From Escherichia phage NRG-P0074: a stretch of DNA of 64,000 bases. The notes under the pieces are model-generated. The model did no database searches and was not told the origin of the DNA. It worked only from the letters and a program-made list of their open reading frames with translations. The translations under genes and the position numbers were made by a program. Position 1 is the first letter of the stretch. The number at the start of each line of letters is the position of its first letter. Where the stretch lies: the sequence record PQ480333.1; one strand, given 5' to 3'. Shown here one piece after another: positions 5,176 to 47,702 of the stretch.

Positions 5176-5408
5176 GTATAGCAATTTACATTAAATCAGA
5201 ATCATGTGATAGTTATCTGTACACATACGATAAAGATGTGTCAGAAGAAAAAATCAAAGACGATCTTAATATGGACCTTGATATGTTCTGTCCTATTGCA
5301 GATTACAAACTTGCGGTCTCTAATAGTGAAAGTCCATCTAAAGAAACGCGCATCGAAGAATTTATGTCCGAATTAATGGCCAAATCATGGGGCCGAGATG
5401 ATGAGTAA
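5172..5408 (+). CDS. hypothetical acidic protein
   Basis: ATGA overlap with upstream stop; 78 aa. Confidence 0.45.
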   Translation: MSIAIYIKSESCDSYLYTYDKDVSEEKIKDDLNMDLDMFCPIADYKLAVSNSESPSKETRIEEFMSELMAKSWGRDDE

Positions 5409-40143: not shown

Positions 40144-42855
40144 ATGAAAGAATTTTACTTAACGGTTGAACAGATTGGTGATTCAATTTTTGAACGTTAC
40201 ATCGATTCTAATGGCCGTGAACGTACTCGTGAAGTAGAATATAAACCATCACTGTTTGCTCATTGTCCAGAAAGTCAGGCTACGAAATATTTCGATATCT
40301 ACGGTAAACCGTGTACTCGTAAGTTGTTCGCTAATATGCGTGATGCCTCCCAATGGATTAAACGCATGGAAGATATCGGACTTGAAGCACTTGGCATGGA
40401 CGATTTCAAATTGGCGTATTTGTCTGACACTTATAACTATGAAATCAAATACGACCATACAAAAATTCGTGTGGCTAACTTCGACATCGAAGTAACATCT
40501 CCGGATGGGTTCCCTGAGCCGTCACAAGCAAAACATCCGATTGATGCTATCACCCACTATGACTCAATTGACGACAGGTTCTACGTATTTGATCTATTGA
40601 ATTCTCCATACGGTAATGTGGAAGAATGGTCTATTGAAATCGCTGCTAAGCTTCAAGAACAAGGTGGTGATGAAGTTCCATCCGAAATTATCGATAAAAT
40701 CATTTATATGCCGTTCGATAACGAAAAAGAATTGTTGATGGAATATCTCAACTTCTGGCAACAGAAAACTCCTGTCATTTTGACTGGATGGAACGTTGAG
40801 TCATTTGATATTCCATATGTGTATAACCGAATCAAGAATATTTTTGGCGAATCTACTGCGAAACGTTTATCACCACATCGTAAAACTCGTGTTAAAGTTA
40901 TCGAAAACATGTATGGTTCTCGTGAAATCATTACATTGTTCGGTATCTCTGTTCTTGATTACATTGACCTTTACAAAAAATTCTCTTTTACCAATCAACC
41001 GTCGTATTCTCTGGATTACATTTCAGAATTTGAATTGAACGTTGGTAAACTGAAATATGACGGTCCTATTTCTAAACTTCGCGAAAGTAATCATCAACGA
41101 TATATAAGCTATAACATCATCGACGTATATCGTGTATTGCAAATTGATGCTAAGCGTCAGTTCATTAACTTGAGCTTGGACATGGGTTATTATGCTAAGA
41201 TACAGATTCAATCTGTGTTTAGCCCAATTAAAACATGGGATGCTATTATTTTTAATAGCCTTAAAGAGCAGAACAAGGTGATTCCACAAGGTCGTTCTCA
41301 CCCGGTTCAACCTTATCCTGGCGCTTTTGTTAAGGAACCTATTCCAAATCGATACAAATATGTAATGAGTTTCGACCTTACATCTCTGTATCCAAGTATT
41401 ATTCGCCAAGTGAATATTAGCCCAGAAACAATAGCAGGAACGTTTAAAGTAGCTCCATTGCATGATTATATTAACGCTGTTGCTGAACGTCCTTCTGATG
41501 TGTACAGTTGTTCTCCTAACGGCATGATGTATTATAAAGACCGTGACGGTGTTGTTCCAACTGAAATCACTAAAGTCTTTAATCAACGTAAAGAACATAA
41601 AGGTTACATGCTTGCGGCTCAACGTAATGGTGAAATAATTAAAGAGGCATTGCATAATCCTAATCTTTCTGTTGACGAACCGTTAGATGTTGATTATCGT
41701 TTCGACTTCAGTGATGAGATTAAAGAAAAGATTAAAAAGTTGTCTGCTAAATCTCTTAATGAAATGTTGTTTAGAGCTCAACGTACTGAAGTTGCAGGTA
41801 TGACTGCCCAAATTAACCGTAAATTGCTTATCAACTCACTTTATGGTGCACTTGGAAACGTTTGGTTCCGTTATTATGATTTGCGTAATGCTACTGCAAT
41901 CACAACATTTGGTCAAATGGCTTTACAGTGGATTGAACGTAAAGTTAATGAATATCTGAATGAAGTTTGTGGTACAGAAGGCGAAGCTTTCGTTCTTTAT
42001 GGTGATACAGACTCCATTTACGTATCTGCAGATAAAATTATTGATAAGGTTGGTGAATCTAAATTCCGTGATACCAACCATTGGGTAGACTTCTTAGATA
42101 AGTTCGCTCGTGAACGTATGGAACCTGCTATTGATAGAGGTTTCCGTGAAATGTGCGAATACATGAACAATAAACAACACTTAATGTTCATGGACCGAGA
42201 AGCTATCGCTGGTCCTCCGCTCGGTTCTAAAGGTATTGGTGGATTTTGGACTGGTAAGAAACGTTATGCATTAAACGTGTGGGATATGGAAGGTACTCGT
42301 TACGCTGAGCCTAAACTCAAAATCATGGGACTAGAGACTCAGAAATCTTCGACCCCTAAAGCAGTACAGAAAGCTCTTAAAGAATGTATTCGTCGTATGC
42401 TTCAAGAAGGTGAAGAATCATTACAAGAATATTTTAAAGAGTTTGAAAAAGAATTCCGTCAATTGAATTATATTAGCATCGCGGCGGTATCTTCTGCGAA
42501 TAACATTGCTAAATATGATGTAGGTGGATTCCCTGGTCCTAAATGCCCGTTCCATATTCGCGGAATTCTGACGTATAACCGGGCTATCAAAGGTAATATC
42601 GATGCACCGCAAGTTGTAGAAGGTGAAAAAGTATATGTTCTGCCTTTACGTGAAGGAAACCCATTCGGTGATAAATGTATCGCATGGCCTTCTGGTACTG
42701 AAATCACAGATTTAATTAAAGACGACGTACTTCATTGGATGGACTACACTGTTCTCCTTGAGAAGACATTTATTAAACCACTTGAAGGATTCACATCAGC
42801 AGCGAAACTCGATTACGAGAAGAAAGCATCTCTGTTCGATATGTTCGATTTTTGA
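40144..42855 (+). CDS. 43: DNA polymerase gp43 (family B)
   Basis: 903 aa; exonuclease motifs FDIEV, YNIIDV; polymerase motifs DLTSLYPSI, YGDTDS; N-terminus MKEFYLTVEQIGDSIFERYIDSNGRERTREVEYKPSLFAHCPESQATKYFDIYGKPC corresponds to the RB69-type polymerase as I remember it. Confidence 0.98.
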   Translation: MKEFYLTVEQIGDSIFERYIDSNGRERTREVEYKPSLFAHCPESQATKYFDIYGKPCTRKLFANMRDASQWIKRMEDIGLEALGMDDFKLAYLSDTYNYEIKYDHTKIRVANFDIEVTSPDGFPEPSQAKHPIDAITHYDSIDDRFYVFDLLNSPYGNVEEWSIEIAAKLQEQGGDEVPSEIIDKIIYMPFDNEKELLMEYLNFWQQKTPVILTGWNVESFDIPYVYNRIKNIFGESTAKRLSPHRKTRVKVIENMYGSREIITLFGISVLDYIDLYKKFSFTNQPSYSLDYISEFELNVGKLKYDGPISKLRESNHQRYISYNIIDVYRVLQIDAKRQFINLSLDMGYYAKIQIQSVFSPIKTWDAIIFNSLKEQNKVIPQGRSHPVQPYPGAFVKEPIPNRYKYVMSFDLTSLYPSIIRQVNISPETIAGTFKVAPLHDYINAVAERPSDVYSCSPNGMMYYKDRDGVVPTEITKVFNQRKEHKGYMLAAQRNGEIIKEALHNPNLSVDEPLDVDYRFDFSDEIKEKIKKLSAKSLNEMLFRAQRTEVAGMTAQINRKLLINSLYGALGNVWFRYYDLRNATAITTFGQMALQWIERKVNEYLNEVCGTEGEAFVLYGDTDSIYVSADKIIDKVGESKFRDTNHWVDFLDKFARERMEPAIDRGFREMCEYMNNKQHLMFMDREAIAGPPLGSKGIGGFWTGKKRYALNVWDMEGTRYAEPKLKIMGLETQKSSTPKAVQKALKECIRRMLQEGEESLQEYFKEFEKEFRQLNYISIAAVSSANNIAKYDVGGFPGPKCPFHIRGILTYNRAIKGNIDAPQVVEGEKVYVLPLREGNPFGDKCIAWPSGTEITDLIKDDVLHWMDYTVLLEKTFIKPLEGFTSAAKLDYEKKASLFDMFDF

Positions 42856-42895
42856 TATAATGACATGGACGGTAAACTAATTAAATGAGAGAAAT

Positions 42896-43531
42896 ATGAA
42901 AACTACTCCTATTACTATCGCTATTGACGCAATCATAAAACAAGCTTCTTCTTTGGCCGCTATGGCCAAAGTAATTAGTCAAAACCCTGCTCGTTATAAT
43001 GCTATTCTAGAAACTCTTCGACGCCCGGGACTTAGTAATTATGAAAGCCGAGTAATTATTACAGGTGTTGGTAAGAATGCTAATATTGCAACTAAAGCTT
43101 CTGAGACATTTGCTTCACTCGGTATCCCGAGTATGTACTTGAACACTGGGCATTATTCTCACGGTGATGCAGGATTCATTGCGCCTAATGACGTGTTGAT
43201 TCATATTAGTCGTTCTGGTAAAACTGAAGAAATGATAGGCGTGGCTAAGCATCTTAAAATGATTCGACCGAACGTCAAACAGATTCTGTTGCATTGTAAC
43301 CCAGACATTCCACAAGAAAATGAAGCCCTTTTTGATTACTCTTTCTGTACAGGCATCGCAGTAGAGGTTGATGAGAATTCTCTGGCTCCGACTATGTCCA
43401 CTACATTGTTGTTAGCGCTTATCGATACGTTCGCTATCAACCTTTCGTCTGAACGTGGATTTACCTCTAATGACTTCCTTAAGTTCCACCCTGGTGGTGC
43501 ACTAGGTGCCATGTTACGAGGCGAACAATGA
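42896..43531 (+). CDS. SIS-domain sugar-phosphate isomerase, KdsD/GutQ-like (putative D-arabinose-5-phosphate isomerase), no CBS domains
   Basis: VIITGVGKNANIATKASETFASLGIP, HGDAGFIAPNDVLIHISRSGKTEE, LAPTMSTT and FLKFHPGGALG align by eye with E. coli KdsD SIS-domain motifs. Confidence 0.8.
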   Translation: MKTTPITIAIDAIIKQASSLAAMAKVISQNPARYNAILETLRRPGLSNYESRVIITGVGKNANIATKASETFASLGIPSMYLNTGHYSHGDAGFIAPNDVLIHISRSGKTEEMIGVAKHLKMIRPNVKQILLHCNPDIPQENEALFDYSFCTGIAVEVDENSLAPTMSTTLLLALIDTFAINLSSERGFTSNDFLKFHPGGALGAMLRGEQ

Positions 43532-43671
43532 AAGCAATAACAATAGGACTTTTACTATTGATGCTTGTCATGACTATCTACTGGAGCTTAACGGCTCCAG
43601 TAATGATTCCAACACTTGTAATTGGATGGATTATGATTGGACTACAAGCAAAGTATGAATGCTTTAACTAG
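43528..43671 (+). CDS. hypothetical small hydrophobic peptide (47 aa, below ORF-track cutoff)
   Basis: ATGA overlap with SIS gene stop; two predicted TM helices (ITIGLLLLMLVMTIYW, MIPTLVIGWIMIGL). Confidence 0.3.
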   Translation: MKAITIGLLLLMLVMTIYWSLTAPVMIPTLVIGWIMIGLQAKYECFN

Positions 43672-43712
43672 AATAGTGTACAATACTCCTACTTACCAAT
43701 GAGGACTTCAAC

Positions 43713-45398
43713 ATGAAAAAAGCTGTTATTCTTGGTGCTGGACTGGCAACTCGTTTATATCCAATAACGCATCATATTCCTAAGGTGCTTGTTAACTATA
43801 AACAAGACACTATTCTGAGCAATTTGTATACAATTTATTCTGACCTTGGCGCAGATGAAATTATTGTAGTAGTTCATTCAAAATTTGCTGAAACTGTTCG
43901 AGCTTATTGTGAGCAAGAAGGGTTCAATGTGACTATTCGTACAGTTGATGAAGCGTATGGTTCTGCTTATGCTCTTGCTAAATTACACAAAGATTTAGAC
44001 GGCCATAATGTAATTGTTAACTGGTGTGATATTATTCCGGATTTTGGTTCATGGTCTTGGAATGTTAACGCAATCTATGTTAAGGGTGACGAATGTCGAT
44101 ATAATTTCGACGGTGAAAATATCACTAACGTAGGTTCAACAGGTGGTAATGTTGTAGGAATTTATCAGTTCAAAGACTGGGAATTCTATATGGGTTCTAC
44201 TGATGAGGAAATTCATGAATACTGCAAAGGACGTGATTTCGTAGAATTCCTTTACGGCAGCGCATTCAATAAATCAGAGCTTATGAATCTAATTGATTTA
44301 GGTGATATGCCTAAACTTGAAAAAGCTCATGAAGTTCGTGAACTTAATCGTAGTTTTAATGCAGTTGAAATTGGTGAAGAAACTGTAACTAAATTCGCAT
44401 TAACCGAACAGGGACGAGCTCTTCAGAAAGATGAGATTTCATGGTATCTTAAAGTGAAATCAGATTCAGTTCCTCAGTTAGTTTCTGTTAATGAAAATAA
44501 CTTTGAAATGGAACGCATTAAAGGTAAGCCGGCATTTGAATATATTAAATCCAAATCAAGTCTTGCTCGTCCACAAATTGTTGATGCAATTTTAGATGCA
44601 CTGAAATTCAGCACAGACACTTATTTTGTAAGTCCTGAAACTGTTCGTCGTGATTTCACTAAAGAATTCTATACGAAAGTTATTGATCGTTGTGAAAGCA
44701 TTCAACCATTGATTGATTCATTTGGTAAAATCACACATGTGAACTACACTAAGATTGGACGTCTGAAGCCAATGCTGAAACAAGCTTTAGAACATCTTAT
44801 TCGTTATCATAACCGTTCTCAGGGACAGTACTCTGTTATTCATGGTGACCCGAACTTCAGTAATACTATGATTACTGATAACGGCGAAGTTAAGTTTATC
44901 GACCCTCGTGGATATTTTGGCGAAACCAAGATTTACGGGCCAAAATTGTACGATGAAGCTAAAGTGCTTTATGCTGTTTCAGGTTATGATGAATTCAACG
45001 CTAATCCGACCTGGGGACAGTTTACTATTGATGAAACAACTTGTAATGTGACTATTAACATCAATCCATTAGTTTACAAATATGGAAAGATGAGTTCGTT
45101 TAACGAGTATCATCATTTGGCAGTGGCAATTATCTGGATTGCATTAGGTGGTTATTTCAAGAATAATCCACTTAAAGCGGTAGCCGCATATTATAAAGGT
45201 ATGGAACTTCTGACTAAGCAATTACGTAACATGGGCCGTGTACTTCAGGACGGCTCTATTAGTTATGACGTAGCAGAACCTGTAACGGCTACTCTGATTA
45301 CAAAAAATCCTGGTAAATGGGTACTAACTGATAAAGAAACTGGTGTTTCCTATCGTCCAATCGGTGGCGATATCACTCATCAATGGGAACGAATTTGA
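43713..45398 (+). CDS. bifunctional sugar-1-phosphate nucleotidyltransferase / sugar kinase (APH-MtnK-like)
   Basis: N-term RmlA/GalU-like ILGAGLATRLYPIT...PK; C-term protein-kinase-like catalytic loop VIHGDPNFSN and metal-binding IDPRGYFG. Confidence 0.7.
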   Translation: MKKAVILGAGLATRLYPITHHIPKVLVNYKQDTILSNLYTIYSDLGADEIIVVVHSKFAETVRAYCEQEGFNVTIRTVDEAYGSAYALAKLHKDLDGHNVIVNWCDIIPDFGSWSWNVNAIYVKGDECRYNFDGENITNVGSTGGNVVGIYQFKDWEFYMGSTDEEIHEYCKGRDFVEFLYGSAFNKSELMNLIDLGDMPKLEKAHEVRELNRSFNAVEIGEETVTKFALTEQGRALQKDEISWYLKVKSDSVPQLVSVNENNFEMERIKGKPAFEYIKSKSSLARPQIVDAILDALKFSTDTYFVSPETVRRDFTKEFYTKVIDRCESIQPLIDSFGKITHVNYTKIGRLKPMLKQALEHLIRYHNRSQGQYSVIHGDPNFSNTMITDNGEVKFIDPRGYFGETKIYGPKLYDEAKVLYAVSGYDEFNANPTWGQFTIDETTCNVTININPLVYKYGKMSSFNEYHHLAVAIIWIALGGYFKNNPLKAVAAYYKGMELLTKQLRNMGRVLQDGSISYDVAEPVTATLITKNPGKWVLTDKETGVSYRPIGGDITHQWERI

Positions 45399-46144
45399 TA
45401 CATTATCTCTACAAAACTACTAATCTTATAAACGGTAAAGTTTATTTAGGAATGCACTCGGCTGAAGAAGCCGAGCCTTTAGATTTATATAAAGGTTCTG
45501 GTAAATTATATAAAAAGGCTGAAAGGAAATACGGGAAGGAAAATTTTCTTAAAGAAATCATTTCCTACCATAGCTCGAGAGAAGAATTAAAAATAGCTGA
45601 AAAGGCTCTAATAACATTAGACATAGTTAAAGACCCAAATTATTACAATCTTAAAACTGGTGGCGAAGGCGGTTCTGACGGGTTATCCCAAAGGTCCAAG
45701 GATAAAATTTCTAAGGCAAATAAAGGACGTTTAGTTGGTGATAAAAACCCAAGATGGGGTAAAACTTTGTCAGCTGAATCTATAGCTAGGGGTAAAGAAA
45801 AGCACAGGAGGTATGGTAAACCTGCATTACATGGTCTAAAGATTAATGTAGATGGCAAATATTATGAATCCTGTCGGGAAGCGGCTAAAGATTTGGGTAT
45901 ATCTTCTGCCACGATTCAAAAGAGAGTAAAATCGCCTAAATATCTTAATTATCGATATCAGGACGAAAGCAAAAATGCTCACAAGTCTCAAAAATTTGTT
46001 AAAATAAACGAAAATTACTATGAATCTCTTAGGATAGCTGAAAAGAAAACGGGTATTCCTAGAAAGCGTATAGCTGATAATATTAAAAATTCTATTGAAG
46101 GATATTGCTATGAAACCATTACATCTTTGCGTGGACGTCGATGA
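45383..46144 (+). CDS. GIY-YIG homing endonuclease (Seg-like), free-standing mobile gene
   Basis: N-terminal GIY-YIG module HYLYKTTNLINGKVYLGMH; Lys-rich C-terminal DNA-binding region; overlaps both neighbours. Confidence 0.7.
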   Translation: MGTNLIHYLYKTTNLINGKVYLGMHSAEEAEPLDLYKGSGKLYKKAERKYGKENFLKEIISYHSSREELKIAEKALITLDIVKDPNYYNLKTGGEGGSDGLSQRSKDKISKANKGRLVGDKNPRWGKTLSAESIARGKEKHRRYGKPALHGLKINVDGKYYESCREAAKDLGISSATIQKRVKSPKYLNYRYQDESKNAHKSQKFVKINENYYESLRIAEKKTGIPRKRIADNIKNSIEGYCYETITSLRGRR

Positions 46145-46484
46145 TTGTATAACAGAGTGGAATAACAATCGTGATTACGTGAACTTCAAACCAGACGTCG
46201 AAATGGTGACTGCCATTAATGCCCTGTATGATGCAGGGCATACCATAACGCTTTACACTGCTCGCGGTATGAAGTCAGTAGGTCCTGGTCGTATAGCAAT
46301 TGACATTCTCCCGAGTCTGATTCAGAACTTGGCAAACATTGGCTTGAAGTACCATAATTTGCTAACACATAAACCAGTATATGATTGGATTATCGACGAC
46401 AAAGCTATGCGTCCTGACGAATTCAAAGCTCTTATGAATAAAGGCGAATTCGAAACATTTAAATCATATAAACCGAATCTATAA
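46110..46484 (+). CDS. putative HAD-superfamily phosphatase (small, KdsC-size)
   Basis: Motif I-like LCVDVDDCIT, motif II LYTAR, motif III K in THKP, motif IV IIDDK; alternative start 46095. Confidence 0.45.
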   Translation: MKPLHLCVDVDDCITEWNNNRDYVNFKPDVEMVTAINALYDAGHTITLYTARGMKSVGPGRIAIDILPSLIQNLANIGLKYHNLLTHKPVYDWIIDDKAMRPDEFKALMNKGEFETFKSYKPNL

Positions 46485-46541
46485 TAATTTAAGTAAGACC
46501 TGCAAAAACCATCGCATCAATTAACGTGAGATGCAAAAAAA

Positions 46542-47702
46542 ATGAATACTTTTAAAATCGGAACGAATTTTGATTTAGCTCTTCTTGATAAAATCGTAGA
46601 GCTCAATAAAACTTATCCTAATAGCTTGATAAACGAAGTATACGGCTCTACAAGAGAAATGGCTTTTGTAGCAGCCAGACCTGATTTTAGGCTTCCTGAC
46701 GTTGACAAAAAGATGTTAGAAGATTACGTTAAACGTTGTAACGAATTAGGTATTTGCTTTAACTATACACTCAACACGATAAATCCTGGTTCAAAAAGAG
46801 AACTAGTTGAGTGGAAGAAGAAAGCTATTCAGGATTATGTTCAGTATCTTTGGTCAATAGGCGTATGGCGTATTACTATCGCTAACCCTGTTGTTATGGA
46901 AATTGTTCGTGAAGTCAATAAAGACATTGAGATTGAAGTTTCAACAATTCTACATGTCGATGCTGTAACTCAAATCAAATACTTGCATGACCAATATAAT
47001 ATCAAAAAGGTCTGCTGTGGAATTCATAAGAACCGTTCAGTTTCTTTCCTGAAGCGTGCAGCAGAGTTTTGCAATAAGAACAATATAATATTTGAAGTTC
47101 TTGTAAATGAGTTCTGTTCTAATGCTGGTAAAGGGTATACAACACATTGTAGCTATCGTGACTCTTGCTATATTTTCCATAGTACTGATGTTACAGCTGA
47201 TGATGCTAAATCCTTAAACGGATATCCTATGCAGCACTGTATTAAAGCTCGTGATACAGACCCATTTAACTGGTTGAGAACTCGTTTTGTTCGTCCTCAA
47301 GATTTGAAACTTTATAATGATATTGGTATCACTCAATTCAAAGTTTCAGGACGTACAGGTAGCACAGACTACATTTTGAAAGTTCTTGAAGCATACGCTT
47401 CTGAAAAGTTTGAAGGTAATTTGTTAGAACTGTGGAAGCCTTTAGAGACTATTTTCACTCTTGAAAACGAAACTGAGTTTTCACATACAGTAAATATTGA
47501 AACCTCTTTGTTAGATGGCTTTTTAGAAAAAAGGTGGTTCAGACATCCAGATTTCGATTGTGCTAATGAAATCTGCGGGACGACGTGTACATATTGTGAA
47601 AGATATTATAAACGTCAATTATCTAAAAACGGGTTAGCAGAAAACTCTATATCTATTATTGATATAACTAACTCTGATGACGCTTTGAGGTACCCGGAAT
47701 GA
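46542..47702 (+). CDS. hypothetical Cys-rich protein (possible Fe-S/metal-binding enzyme, U32-like fold not excluded)
   Basis: 386 aa; Cys cluster EFCSNAGKGYTTHCSYRDSC and C-terminal CANEICGTTCTYC; no Rossmann or radical-SAM CxxxCxxC. Confidence 0.55.
   Translation: MNTFKIGTNFDLALLDKIVELNKTYPNSLINEVYGSTREMAFVAARPDFRLPDVDKKMLEDYVKRCNELGICFNYTLNTINPGSKRELVEWKKKAIQDYVQYLWSIGVWRITIANPVVMEIVREVNKDIEIEVSTILHVDAVTQIKYLHDQYNIKKVCCGIHKNRSVSFLKRAAEFCNKNNIIFEVLVNEFCSNAGKGYTTHCSYRDSCYIFHSTDVTADDAKSLNGYPMQHCIKARDTDPFNWLRTRFVRPQDLKLYNDIGITQFKVSGRTGSTDYILKVLEAYASEKFEGNLLELWKPLETIFTLENETEFSHTVNIETSLLDGFLEKRWFRHPDFDCANEICGTTCTYCERYYKRQLSKNGLAENSISIIDITNSDDALRYPE

What the first reader, a model, noticed from the sequence alone, without database searches (positions are those of the whole stretch)
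43713..45398. Fused nucleotidyltransferase-kinase: one-polypeptide sugar activation module
The N-terminus has the sugar-1-phosphate nucleotidyltransferase signature (MKKAVILGAGLATRLYPIT...PKVLV, RmlA/GalU-like). The C-terminal third has the catalytic HxDxxxxN loop (VIHGDPNFSN) and a DFG-like IDPRGYFG typical of APH, choline-kinase and MtnK (5-methylthioribose kinase) type small-molecule kinases. MtnK-type enzymes phosphorylate the anomeric OH of a furanose pentose, which fits an arabinose-1-kinase. The fusion would channel sugar to sugar-1-P to NDP-sugar.
Basis: partly seen in the sequence, partly recalled or inferred. Interest (0 to 1): 0.75.

Follow-up and report, generated by a model that had tools for sequence, protein, structure and literature searches.

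The report
Phage UDP-arabinose kinase–nucleotidyltransferase (AfhE ortholog)
This gene of an RB69-like coliphage really does encode a sugar kinase fused to a nucleotidyltransferase that helps make the activated arabinose used to decorate the phage's DNA. It is already described in the literature, and the ortholog in a closely related phage (AfhE of HY126) has been characterised biochemically.

Summary

The window is a Mosigvirus (RB69-like T-even phage). The protein is 99.6% identical to RB69 ORF53_52c (gp52:53), which Thomas et al. 2018 proposed for UDP-arabinose synthesis and Lee et al. 2026 equated with HY126 AfhE. Lee et al. cite He et al. 2026 for AfhE as a D-arabinose-5-phosphate kinase plus UDP-D-arabinose pyrophosphorylase.

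Two points need correcting. The reported kinase substrate is arabinose-5-phosphate, not free sugar. The two domains catalyse non-consecutive steps, separated by a HAD phosphatase encoded nearby (46110-46484). The kinase is also no closer to MtnK than to other APH-like kinases.

Novelty: already known. Interest is low.

Side observations: a homing endonuclease sits between the two coupled genes; giant-virus-like contigs carry four-domain single-polypeptide versions of the pathway; the neighbouring U32 protein might be an oxygen-independent hydroxylase.

The parts
43713..45398 (+). Whole ORF, 561 aa: ortholog of RB69 ORF53_52c (gp52:53) and HY126 AfhE, a bifunctional arabinose-5-P 1-kinase / UDP-arabinose pyrophosphorylase
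   Evidence: ORF confirmed. Full-length hit to phrog_4098, E 3.7e-295. 99.6% identical to RB69 and 99.3% to Bas46, where it is annotated 'putative enzyme involved in UDP-arabinose biosynthesis'. The exact sequence is in NCBI as JS09_0132 and others.
43713..44327 (+). N-terminal sugar-1-phosphate nucleotidyltransferase domain (about residues 1-205)
43734..43784 (+). Nucleotide-binding signature G8-A-G-L-A-T-R-L15 through P23-K24
   Evidence: G10, R14 and K24 are invariant in 40 homologs and in the 10 four-domain fusions.
44340..45233 (+). APH/choline-kinase-like small-molecule kinase domain (about residues 210-507)
44841..44864 (+). Catalytic loop H377-G-D379-P-N-F-S-N384
   Evidence: G378, D379, S383 and N384 are invariant; H377 is conserved in at least 90%. 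All are invariant in the fusion proteins.
44898..44912 (+). Mg-binding 'DFG-equivalent' I396-D397-P-R-G400
   Evidence: I396, D397, P398, R399 and G400 are invariant.
45234..45395 (+). C-terminal beta-rich extension (residues 508-561), function unknown
   Evidence: pLDDT is lower here, 72-85. Distant homologs cover only about 88-90% of the query.
42896..43531 (+). Arabinose-5-phosphate isomerase (SIS domain; RB69 gp55 homolog), pathway step 1
   Evidence: Pfam SIS E 1e-10. NCBIfam KpsF/GutQ E 2e-32 and KdsD E 7e-31. phrog_5670. RB69 annotation.
46110..46484 (+). Small HAD-type phosphatase (RB69 gp51 / AfhF homolog), pathway step 3; carries the DVDDC motif
   Evidence: NCBIfam TIGR01689 capsule biosynthesis phosphatase, E 2.5e-13. 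phrog_1238. Sequence compared with RB69 gp51. Role taken from Lee et al..
45383..46144 (+). GIY-YIG/NUMOD homing endonuclease inserted between the AfhE and AfhF homologs. It overlaps both and is not part of the pathway.
   Evidence: Pfam I-TevI_DNA-bd, NUMOD1/3 and SegE_GIY-YIG. phrog_314. Window 45395-46118 replaces 25 bp of RB69. Present in only 3 phage records.
47981..48697 (+). ThyA-like dCMP 5-hydroxylase (RB69 gp48 / HY126 AfhB homolog), which makes the 5-hydroxycytosine acceptor
   Evidence: 232 of 238 residues identical to PDB 9iqc. The related entry 9iqu is titled 'phage HY126 dCMP hydroxylase-AfhB'.
48697..49596 (+). Putative DNA arabinosyltransferase (RB69 gp46:47 homolog; a single 299-aa ORF here), consumer of the NDP-arabinose
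   Evidence: ORF. phrog_3891 full length. No Pfam hit. Role taken from Lee et al..

Best explanation
The ORF encodes the Mosigvirus ortholog of AfhE (RB69 gp52:53), a bifunctional enzyme of the phage-encoded UDP-D-arabinofuranose pathway. That pathway supplies the sugar for arabinosylation of 5-hydroxycytosine in virion DNA.

Proposed route:
1. Host ribulose-5-phosphate is isomerised to D-arabinose-5-phosphate by the SIS isomerase (42896-43531).
2. The C-terminal APH-like kinase domain of this protein uses ATP to phosphorylate the anomeric C1-OH, giving arabinofuranose-1,5-bisphosphate.
3. The small HAD phosphatase (46110-46484) removes the 5-phosphate.
4. The N-terminal RmlA/MurU-like domain of this protein condenses arabinose-1-phosphate with UTP to give UDP-arabinofuranose.
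5. DNA arabinosyltransferases (48697-49596, and one elsewhere in the genome) transfer the sugar onto 5-hydroxycytosine, which is made as the mononucleotide by the ThyA-like hydroxylase (47981-48697).

Shown here: the two folds, intact catalytic residues, orthology to RB69 gp52:53, synteny, and co-fusion of all four activities in distant homologs. Taken from the literature for the HY126 ortholog: the substrates, the order of steps and the use of UTP. Inferred: that this exact protein behaves identically.
For: - Architecture and catalytic residues.
- Orthology: 99.6% identity to RB69 ORF53_52c and 99.3% to Bas46, where it is annotated as a 'putative enzyme involved in UDP-arabinose biosynthesis'. 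The same sequence occurs in many Mosigvirus genomes.
- Link to HY126: the neighbouring ThyA homolog is 232/238 identical to PDB 9iqc. The related entry 9iqu is titled 'phage HY126 dCMP hydroxylase-AfhB'. HY126 is therefore a close relative carrying the same cluster.
- Literature: Lee et al. 2026 (PMC13326640, section 27) equate RB69 gp52:53 with AfhE. Citing He et al. [quoted passage not shown] Thomas et al. 2018 (PMC6024577) showed that the RB69 gene is a single 561-residue ORF and proposed a role in UDP-arabinose synthesis.
- Synteny: isomerase, phosphatase, hydroxylase and glycosyltransferase all lie within 6 kb.
- Independent 'Rosetta stone' evidence: homologs of 890-955 aa fuse HAD, SIS, nucleotidyltransferase and kinase in one chain, with every catalytic residue of both domains conserved.
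Against: - I could not read He et al. 2026 (not held). I also could not obtain the HY126 AfhE sequence, so the biochemical assignment reaches this protein through a citation and through synteny.
- Table 1 of Lee et al. lists a different order: the phosphatase acts on A5P to give free arabinose, and the kinase then makes Ara-1-P. This contradicts their own text.
- For this sequence the kinase-family Pfam hits are below their gathering scores.
- Nucleotide specificity cannot be read from the sequence.
- No enzymology exists for the RB69-type protein itself. Thomas 2018 only expressed it.
Confidence: 0.85

Rival explanations
1. The phosphatase first dephosphorylates arabinose-5-phosphate to free D-arabinose. 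The kinase domain then makes arabinose-1-phosphate, which passes directly to the fused nucleotidyltransferase domain. The two fused activities would be consecutive, with possible channelling.
Against: The text of the same paper, citing biochemical work on HY126, states that AfhE is a D-arabinose-5-phosphate kinase producing Araf-1,5-P2, and that AfhF dephosphorylates the bisphosphate. The phosphatase's structural hits are to heptose-1,7-bisphosphate 7-phosphatase. That fits the bisphosphate route, which mirrors the ADP-heptose pathway.
Confidence: 0.1
2. The same architecture activates a different sugar or uses a different nucleotide, for example CDP-, GDP- or dTDP-pentose, or xylose. The arabinose precursor would then come from another route.
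For: Nucleotide and sugar specificity cannot be deduced from the motifs. The best PDB sequence hit of the N-terminal domain is a CTP-dependent enzyme, LicC, at E 2e-5. The Shewanella phage Thanatos homolog TH1_060 (about 54% identical) lies in a cluster for an unidentified pentose for which xylose was discussed. Lee et al. write 'NDP-arabinose, potentially UDP-arabinose'.
Against: Mosigvirus DNA (RB69, Bas46/47, NP) carries arabinose on 5-hydroxycytosine. The gene lies next to an arabinose-5-phosphate isomerase. AfhE is reported as a UDP-D-arabinose pyrophosphorylase.
Confidence: 0.04
3. The C-terminal domain is a pseudokinase, a protein kinase or a resistance-type kinase (aminoglycoside or choline) unrelated to sugar activation.
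For: The best structural matches are aminoglycoside phosphotransferases. Weak Pfam hits include RIO1 and ABC1.
Against: K227, E241, D379, N384 and D397 are invariant, which argues against a pseudokinase. The domain is always fused to a nucleotidyltransferase, and in distant homologs also to a SIS isomerase and a HAD phosphatase. The whole family co-occurs with sugar-pathway genes. Identity to any APH or choline kinase is only 9-17%.
Confidence: 0.01

Closest known systems
AfhE of Escherichia phage HY126 (He et al., Nat Chem Biol 2026, as cited in PMC13326640), equivalent to RB69 gp52:53 / ORF53_52c (Thomas et al. 2018) and DLP3 gp82
   Same: Same two-domain architecture and the same gene neighbourhood: isomerase, HAD phosphatase, dCMP hydroxylase, arabinosyltransferase. 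99.6% identical to RB69 ORF53_52c. The neighbouring hydroxylase is 97% identical to the HY126 AfhB crystal structure.
   Different: Essentially nothing in the protein itself. In this phage a GIY-YIG homing endonuclease is inserted between this gene and the phosphatase gene. That abolishes the TAATG stop/start overlap seen in RB69 and replaces the phosphatase's N-terminus. Identity to HY126 AfhE itself was not measured.
LicA (choline kinase) plus LicC (CTP:phosphocholine cytidylyltransferase) of Streptococcus pneumoniae; AmgK plus MurU of Pseudomonas (anomeric MurNAc/GlcNAc kinase plus uridylyltransferase)
   Different: Those are separate polypeptides catalysing consecutive steps on unphosphorylated substrates. 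Here the two are fused, the reported kinase substrate already carries a 5-phosphate, and a phosphatase step intervenes. Sequence identity is only 12-20%.
ADP-heptose pathway: GmhA (SIS isomerase), HldE (bifunctional kinase/adenylyltransferase), GmhB (HAD 7-phosphatase)
   Same: The pathway logic is identical: a SIS isomerase, then an anomeric kinase making a bisphosphate, then a HAD phosphatase removing the distal phosphate, then a nucleotidyltransferase. The kinase and nucleotidyltransferase are fused and catalyse non-consecutive steps (my own knowledge of the E. coli pathway). The phage phosphatase is annotated 'phosphoheptose isomerase' and hits heptose-1,7-bisphosphate phosphatase structurally.
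   Different: The catalytic domains are not homologous. HldE has a ribokinase-type (PfkB) kinase and a cytidylyltransferase-type transferase, and neither family is hit here. Domain order is reversed, and the substrate is a pentose rather than a heptose.
   Different: It is not the nearest relative: rank 59, behind many APH, choline-kinase and fructosamine-kinase structures. No MtnK-specific model is hit. MtnK is a stand-alone enzyme acting on a sugar without a phosphate.
FKP-type bifunctional L-fucokinase/GDP-fucose pyrophosphorylase (Bacteroides, plants) and trypanosomatid arabinokinase/pyrophosphorylases
   Same: One polypeptide combines an anomeric sugar kinase with an NDP-sugar pyrophosphorylase (my own knowledge).
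   Different: Those kinases have the GHMP fold and act on free sugars in salvage, with consecutive steps. No GHMP family hit is found here.

Membership tests
Sugar-1-phosphate nucleotidyltransferase (Pfam PF00483; RmlA/GalU/MurU/LicC type) | Profile score above the curated threshold | tested here: met
   39.1 bits against a gathering score of 21.2, E 8.5e-10. Only profile positions 1-101 of 245 are matched. 33 of 40 homologs hit the family.
Sugar-1-phosphate nucleotidyltransferase (Pfam PF00483; RmlA/GalU/MurU/LicC type) | G-x-G-x-R-L nucleotide-binding loop, catalytic Lys and acidic metal ligands | tested here: met
   G8-A-G10-L-A-T-R14-L15, K24, D106 and D195/D198 are invariant in 40 homologs and in 10 fusion proteins. 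Assignment of the Asp residues as metal ligands is by analogy, not by superposition.
Sugar-1-phosphate nucleotidyltransferase (Pfam PF00483; RmlA/GalU/MurU/LicC type) | Rossmann-like alpha/beta fold superposable on solved members | tested here: met
Sugar-1-phosphate nucleotidyltransferase (Pfam PF00483; RmlA/GalU/MurU/LicC type) | NDP-sugar formation from sugar-1-P plus NTP | not testable with these tools
   Reported for the HY126 ortholog only.
APH / choline-kinase-like small-molecule kinases (Pfam PF01636 clan) | Profile score above the curated threshold | tested here: not met
   For this sequence APH scores 14.4 bits against 23.2, Fructosamin_kin 17.1 against 22.4 and EcKL 16.2 against 22. 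At family level 18 of 40 homologs hit APH, best E 6e-10. The sequence is a divergent member of a family that does belong.
APH / choline-kinase-like small-molecule kinases (Pfam PF01636 clan) | Catalytic H-x-D-x4-N loop, D-x-x-G Mg site, ATP-binding Lys and helix-C Glu | tested here: met
   G378, D379, N384, D397, K227 (in strand 224-229) and E241 (in helix 232-247) are invariant; H377 is conserved in at least 90%.
APH / choline-kinase-like small-molecule kinases (Pfam PF01636 clan) | Bilobal kinase fold | tested here: met
MtnK (5-methylthioribose kinase) family | Closest structural or sequence relationship among APH-like kinases, or a hit to an MtnK-specific model | tested here: not met
AfhE orthologous group (phage arabinose-5-P kinase / UDP-arabinose pyrophosphorylase) | Nucleotidyltransferase-kinase two-domain protein of about 550-565 aa in a Straboviridae genome | tested here: met
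   Full-length homologs occur in RB69, Bas46, DLP1, Maestro, Serratia phage 92A1 and Thanatos-1.
AfhE orthologous group (phage arabinose-5-P kinase / UDP-arabinose pyrophosphorylase) | Clustered with an arabinose-5-P isomerase, a HAD phosphatase, a ThyA-like dCMP hydroxylase and a glycosyltransferase | tested here: met
   The hydroxylase is 97% identical to HY126 AfhB.
AfhE orthologous group (phage arabinose-5-P kinase / UDP-arabinose pyrophosphorylase) | Direct sequence identity to HY126 AfhE | not testable with these tools
   The He et al. paper is not held. No AfhE chain is in the PDB by sequence. HY126 was not among the cluster members listed. The equivalence with RB69 gp52:53 is stated by Lee et al..
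AfhE orthologous group (phage arabinose-5-P kinase / UDP-arabinose pyrophosphorylase) | Host phage DNA carries arabinosyl-5-hydroxycytosine | not testable with these tools
   Shown for the Mosigvirus phages RB69 and NP, and reported for Bas46/47. This particular isolate is unknown.
HldE-type bifunctional heptose kinase/adenylyltransferase | PfkB/ribokinase-fold kinase plus cytidylyltransferase-fold transferase | tested here: not met
   No PfkB or CTP_transf_like hits, and the folds are different. The two work alike but are not related.

The most novel reading that the evidence does not exclude
The nucleotidyltransferase-kinase unit may be the core of a mobile ribulose-5-P to NDP-D-arabinofuranose module that reaches well beyond T4-like phages. 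Contigs with giant-virus hallmarks encode 890-955-aa proteins that fuse HAD phosphatase, SIS isomerase, nucleotidyltransferase and kinase in one chain. The hallmarks are RNA polymerase Rpb2/Rpb10, MutS-HNH and a large PolB. All catalytic residues are conserved, and the genes sit next to glycosyltransferases, epimerases and a sulfotransferase. If these proteins make NDP-arabinose, D-arabinofuranosylation of capsid glycans, or conceivably of DNA, would be a previously unrecognised trait of Nucleocytoviricota. The four-domain fusion would also support metabolite channelling through the bisphosphate intermediate. I found no paper in the held library describing this, but the primary He et al. paper could not be read.
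Probability: 0.3. Interest if true: 0.5.

Novelty: already known. Interest (0 to 1): 0.12.

Why it matters
The enzyme is a key step in how RB69-type phages build arabinosylated 5-hydroxycytosine. This DNA hypermodification blocks restriction enzymes and shapes sensitivity to other bacterial defences, and it matters for phage therapy and for sequencing or engineering these phages.

That significance is already recognised: Thomas 2018, Mahler 2025, He 2026 and Lee 2026. The value of this check is mainly negative. The finding is real and well read, but it is not new, and its mechanistic sketch needs correcting: a phosphorylated substrate, an intervening phosphatase, and logic like the ADP-heptose pathway.

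Tried and rejected
- The primary papers were not held: He et al. 2026 (doi 10.1038/s41589-026-02150-z) and Mahler et al. 2025 (doi 10.1016/j.chom.2025.06.005). The biochemistry is therefore cited second-hand from Lee et al..
- A PDB sequence search with the full protein found only nucleotidyltransferases, best LicC at E 2e-5. It found no kinase and no AfhE structure.
- NCBIfam gave only sub-threshold nucleotidyltransferase hits and nothing for the kinase half.
- The cluster look-up showed the exact sequence in many Mosigvirus records, but no name mentions AfhE or HY126.
- The promoter and terminator scan of 42800-46600 gave counts at the shuffled expectation: 12 against 13.3 and 3 against 2.2. 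It is uninformative.
- The single-sequence AlphaFold model of the ThyA homolog was poor (pLDDT 41). I used it only to retrieve PDB entry titles through the 97% sequence match. Its structural scores should be ignored.
- I considered and rejected MtnK membership, HldE homology, GlmU ('bifunctional protein GlmU' in several GenBank records; no acetyltransferase domain is present) and glycosyltransferase family A (the old CDD comment discussed by Thomas 2018).
Full report
**1. Observation**

Window 43713-45398 (+) is an intact ATG-initiated ORF of 561 codons. Its translation contains the quoted motifs: MKKAVILGAGLATRLYPIT...PKVLV at residues 1-27, VIHGDPNFSN at 375-384 and IDPRGYFG at 396-403.

Pfam assigns the N-terminus to NTP_transferase (E 8.5e-10, 39.1 bits, gathering score 21.2) and NTP_transf_3. 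Around residues 344-409 there are only sub-threshold hits to kinase-like families: Fructosamin_kin, EcKL, RIO1, APH and ABC1. PHROGs gives a full-length match to phrog_4098 (E 3.7e-295, 'unknown function'). A second family covers only residues 211-517, which marks the domain boundary.

**2. Source and identity**

The window is a T-even-type phage of the genus Mosigvirus.
- The 4.8 kb around the gene is 99.2% identical to phage BEU50 and 99.0% to a20. It is 98.5% identical to RB69 over 85% of its length.
- Flanking genes are the clamp loader gp44/62, DNA polymerase gp43 and UvsX.
- By tblastn the protein is 99-100% identical in 142 phage records. It is 99.6% identical to RB69, where the match falls in two pieces. 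It is 99.3% identical to Bas46 (ChristianSchoenbein), which annotates the gene as a 'putative enzyme involved in UDP-arabinose biosynthesis'.
- The exact sequence is in NCBI, for example as JS09_0132.

In the RB69 GenBank record the gene is split into ORF053c ('similar to mannose-1-P guanyltransferase') and ORF052c. My alignment shows a single extra C in the RB69 record at gene position 655: GCAGTTCGAAATT against GCAGTTGAAATT here. Thomas et al. 2018 re-sequenced this region and found the extra C to be an error. They expressed the single 561-residue, 63.9-kDa protein 'ORF53_52c' and proposed that it, together with ORF055c, makes UDP-arabinose (PMC6024577).

**3. Independent test of the two domains**

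I collected 312 homologs and aligned 40 of them spanning 73% to 28% identity.
- Invariant nucleotidyltransferase residues: G10, R14, T19, K24, D106, D195 and D198.
- Invariant kinase residues: K227, E241, G378, D379, N384, D397, P398, R399 and G400. H377 is conserved in at least 90%.

A pseudokinase is therefore very unlikely on sequence grounds. Of the 40 members, 33 hit NTP_transferase and 18 hit APH, best E 6e-10.

AlphaFold2 with this alignment gave pLDDT 93.0 and pTM 0.89. Foldseek against the PDB returned RmlA, MurU, LicC and GDP-mannose pyrophosphorylases at about E 1e-8, and APH(2'')-IIa (3ham) at E 1e-7 over 335 columns.

MtnK is thus one of many equally distant superfamily members, not the nearest.

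**4. What the literature already says**

Lee et al. (NAR 2026, PMC13326640) show that RB69 DNA carries mono- and poly-arabinosylated 5-hydroxycytosine, not hydroxymethylcytosine. In their section 27 they treat 'gp52:53' as one protein and model it. They find MurU-like and APH-like hits (4y7t, 3ham, 1jyk), the same as mine.

They equate it with AfhE of coliphage HY126. Citing He et al. [quoted passage not shown] AfhF, the homolog of RB69 gp51, is described as an Mg-dependent phosphatase converting Araf-1,5-P2 to Araf-1-P.

I could not read He et al. or Mahler et al. 2025. To tie the window to HY126, I searched the PDB with the neighbouring ThyA-like protein (47981-48697). Entries 9iqc/9ir2 match 232 of 238 residues. 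The related entry 9iqu is titled 'phage HY126 dCMP hydroxylase-AfhB with substrate dCMP'. HY126 is therefore a close Mosigvirus relative carrying the same cluster, and the window's ORF is its AfhE ortholog. This is an inference from synteny and from Lee et al.'s equivalence; I did not measure AfhE identity directly.

**5. Gene neighbourhood in the window**

Listed in map order. Functional roles are; the ORFs are.
- 42896-43531: SIS arabinose-5-phosphate isomerase (KpsF/GutQ E 2e-32).
- 43561-43671: 36-aa hydrophobic ORF (RB69 ORF054c).
- 43713-45398: this gene.
- 45383-46144: a GIY-YIG homing endonuclease.
- 46110-46484: a 124-aa HAD phosphatase with the motif DVDDC (TIGR01689 E 2.5e-13).
- 46542-47702: a U32-family protein.
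- 47981-48697: the dCMP 5-hydroxylase.
- 48697-49596: a putative arabinosyltransferase, a single 299-aa ORF here. This agrees with Lee et al. that RB69 46/47 is also a split artefact.
- 49598-50146: a thymidylate-kinase-like protein.

**6. Mechanism**

The best-supported route is:
1. Ribulose-5-P to arabinose-5-P, by the SIS isomerase.
2. Arabinose-5-P to arabinofuranose-1,5-bisphosphate, by the C-terminal kinase domain with ATP.
3. The bisphosphate to arabinofuranose-1-P, by the HAD phosphatase.
4. Arabinofuranose-1-P to UDP-arabinofuranose, by the N-terminal domain with UTP.
5. Transfer of the sugar to 5-hydroxycytosine in DNA.

The two fused activities are therefore not consecutive. From my own knowledge of the E. 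coli pathway, this is the same logic as ADP-heptose synthesis: GmhA isomerase, HldE kinase, GmhB phosphatase, HldE adenylyltransferase. Here it is built from unrelated folds.

An independent argument comes from domain fusion. Homologs of 890-955 aa (P0084, P0088, P0089, P0091, P0092 and others) have the order HAD, SIS, nucleotidyltransferase, kinase. They conserve every catalytic residue of both domains plus the HAD DxDG motif. This links all four activities functionally.

It is also what Table 1 of Lee et al. states, in contradiction to their text. I give it about 0.1.

**7.

The architecture, the small-molecule kinase class, the anomeric phosphorylation of a furanose pentose and the link to arabinose are all right. 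The substrate, the idea of direct channelling, the MtnK affinity and the implied novelty are not.

**8. Novelty and score**

The feature is already known. The gene, its fusion architecture and its pathway role have been published, and the ortholog has been characterised biochemically. Interest is 0.12.

**9. Things noticed in passing**

(a) Homing endonuclease. The endonuclease replaces 25 bp at the RB69 gene junction with 724 bp, window 45395-46118. This removes RB69's TAATG stop/start overlap between the two genes. It also gives the phosphatase a different N-terminus, MKPLHLCVDVDDC against MHHVENMLNLCFDVDDC. The element is found in only three other phage records: a20, BEU50 and JM17.

(b) Giant-virus-like fusions. 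The four-domain fusions lie on contigs with giant-virus hallmarks:
- Rpb2, Rpb10, MutS with HNH and a eukaryote-type kinase in L002-L004.
- A 1553-aa PolB, a ubiquitin hydrolase and a sulfotransferase in L007.
- A DEAD/DSHCT helicase, dUTPase, GT2, epimerases and a second nucleotidyltransferase-HAD-kinase fusion in L005/L006.
No paper in the held library matched this combination of terms.

(c) U32 protein. The U32 family includes RlhA (5-hydroxycytidine in 23S rRNA), TrhP and UbiU/V. These are Fe-S proteins implicated in O2-independent, prephenate-dependent hydroxylation (PMC5727448, PMC6599085, PMC10990095). The phage protein is Cys-rich, with C177/C192/C203/C209 and C340-x4-C-x3-C-x2-C352, and hits UbiU weakly. 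It could provide an anaerobic route to 5-hydroxycytosine alongside the O2/flavin-dependent AfhB. Lee et al. list it only as a 'sugar or heterocycle reductase'. This idea is untested.

(d) Regulatory signals. A promoter and terminator scan of the region was at chance level.

Noticed in passing
window 45383-46144 (+); insertion 45395-46118 relative to RB69: A GIY-YIG/NUMOD free-standing homing endonuclease (253 aa) sits exactly between the AfhE and AfhF homologs. It overlaps the last 16 nt of the former and the first 35 nt of the latter. It replaces 25 bp of RB69 that include the TAATG stop/start overlap, and the phosphatase gains a different N-terminus (MKPLHLCVDVDDC against MHHVENMLNLCFDVDDC). 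Only three other phage records carry it: a20, BEU50 and JM17.
   Followed up: yes
L002-L008 (contigs carrying P0084, P0118, P0089); proteins P0084, P0088, P0089, P0091, P0092, P0095, P0097, P0107, P0109, P0118: Distant homologs of 890-955 aa fuse HAD phosphatase, SIS isomerase, nucleotidyltransferase and kinase in one chain, with all catalytic residues conserved. The contigs carry giant-virus hallmarks (Rpb2, Rpb10, MutS-HNH, a 1553-aa PolB, a DEAD/DSHCT helicase, dUTPase) and neighbouring GT2, epimerase and sulfotransferase genes. One homolog (P0091) comes from a eukaryotic transcriptome set. This suggests NDP-arabinose synthesis in Nucleocytoviricota.
   Followed up: partly
L005/L006 1-2144 (+): About 6 kb upstream of the HAD-containing fusion P0118, the same contigs encode a second 805-aa protein with NTP_transferase, HAD and EcKL/APH domains. 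This is a paralogous sugar-activation fusion with a different domain set.
   Followed up: no
window 46542-47702 (+): The RB69 gp50 homolog is a U32-family protein (Pfam E 7e-11; weak UbiU hit), usually annotated 'peptidase'. U32 members RlhA, TrhP and UbiU/V are implicated in O2-independent, prephenate-dependent hydroxylation, including 5-hydroxycytidine in rRNA. The phage protein has Cys clusters (C177/C192/C203/C209 and C340-C345-C349-C352). Its place in a 5-hydroxycytosine gene cluster suggests an anaerobic alternative to the O2/flavin hydroxylase. This is a hypothesis only.
   Followed up: partly
L001 (RB69 NC_004928.1) position 5369, against window gene position 655; window 48697-49596: The RB69 reference record carries an extra C that splits the gene into ORF053c and ORF052c. 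By my count this is record coordinate about 29126, whereas Thomas 2018 cites C-29116. The window has the intact frame. The RB69 46/47 pair is likewise a single 299-aa ORF in the window.
   Followed up: yes
window 45234-45395 (residues 508-561 of the protein): This is a beta-rich C-terminal extension with lower model confidence (pLDDT 72-85). The more distant homologs cover only about 88-90% of the query, consistent with their lacking it. Its function is unknown; it could be a docking or oligomerisation element.
   Followed up: no
window 43561-43671 (+): A 36-codon ORF encodes a very hydrophobic peptide (MLVMTIYWSLTAPVMIPTLVIGWIMIGLQAKYECFN) between the isomerase gene and this gene. It corresponds to RB69 ORF054c. 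Its function is unknown.
   Followed up: no
literature: PMC13326640, Table 1 against section 27: The paper is internally inconsistent on the order of steps. The table says the phosphatase makes free arabinose and the kinase makes Ara-1-P. The text says the kinase acts on A5P to give the 1,5-bisphosphate, which the phosphatase then trims.
   Followed up: partly
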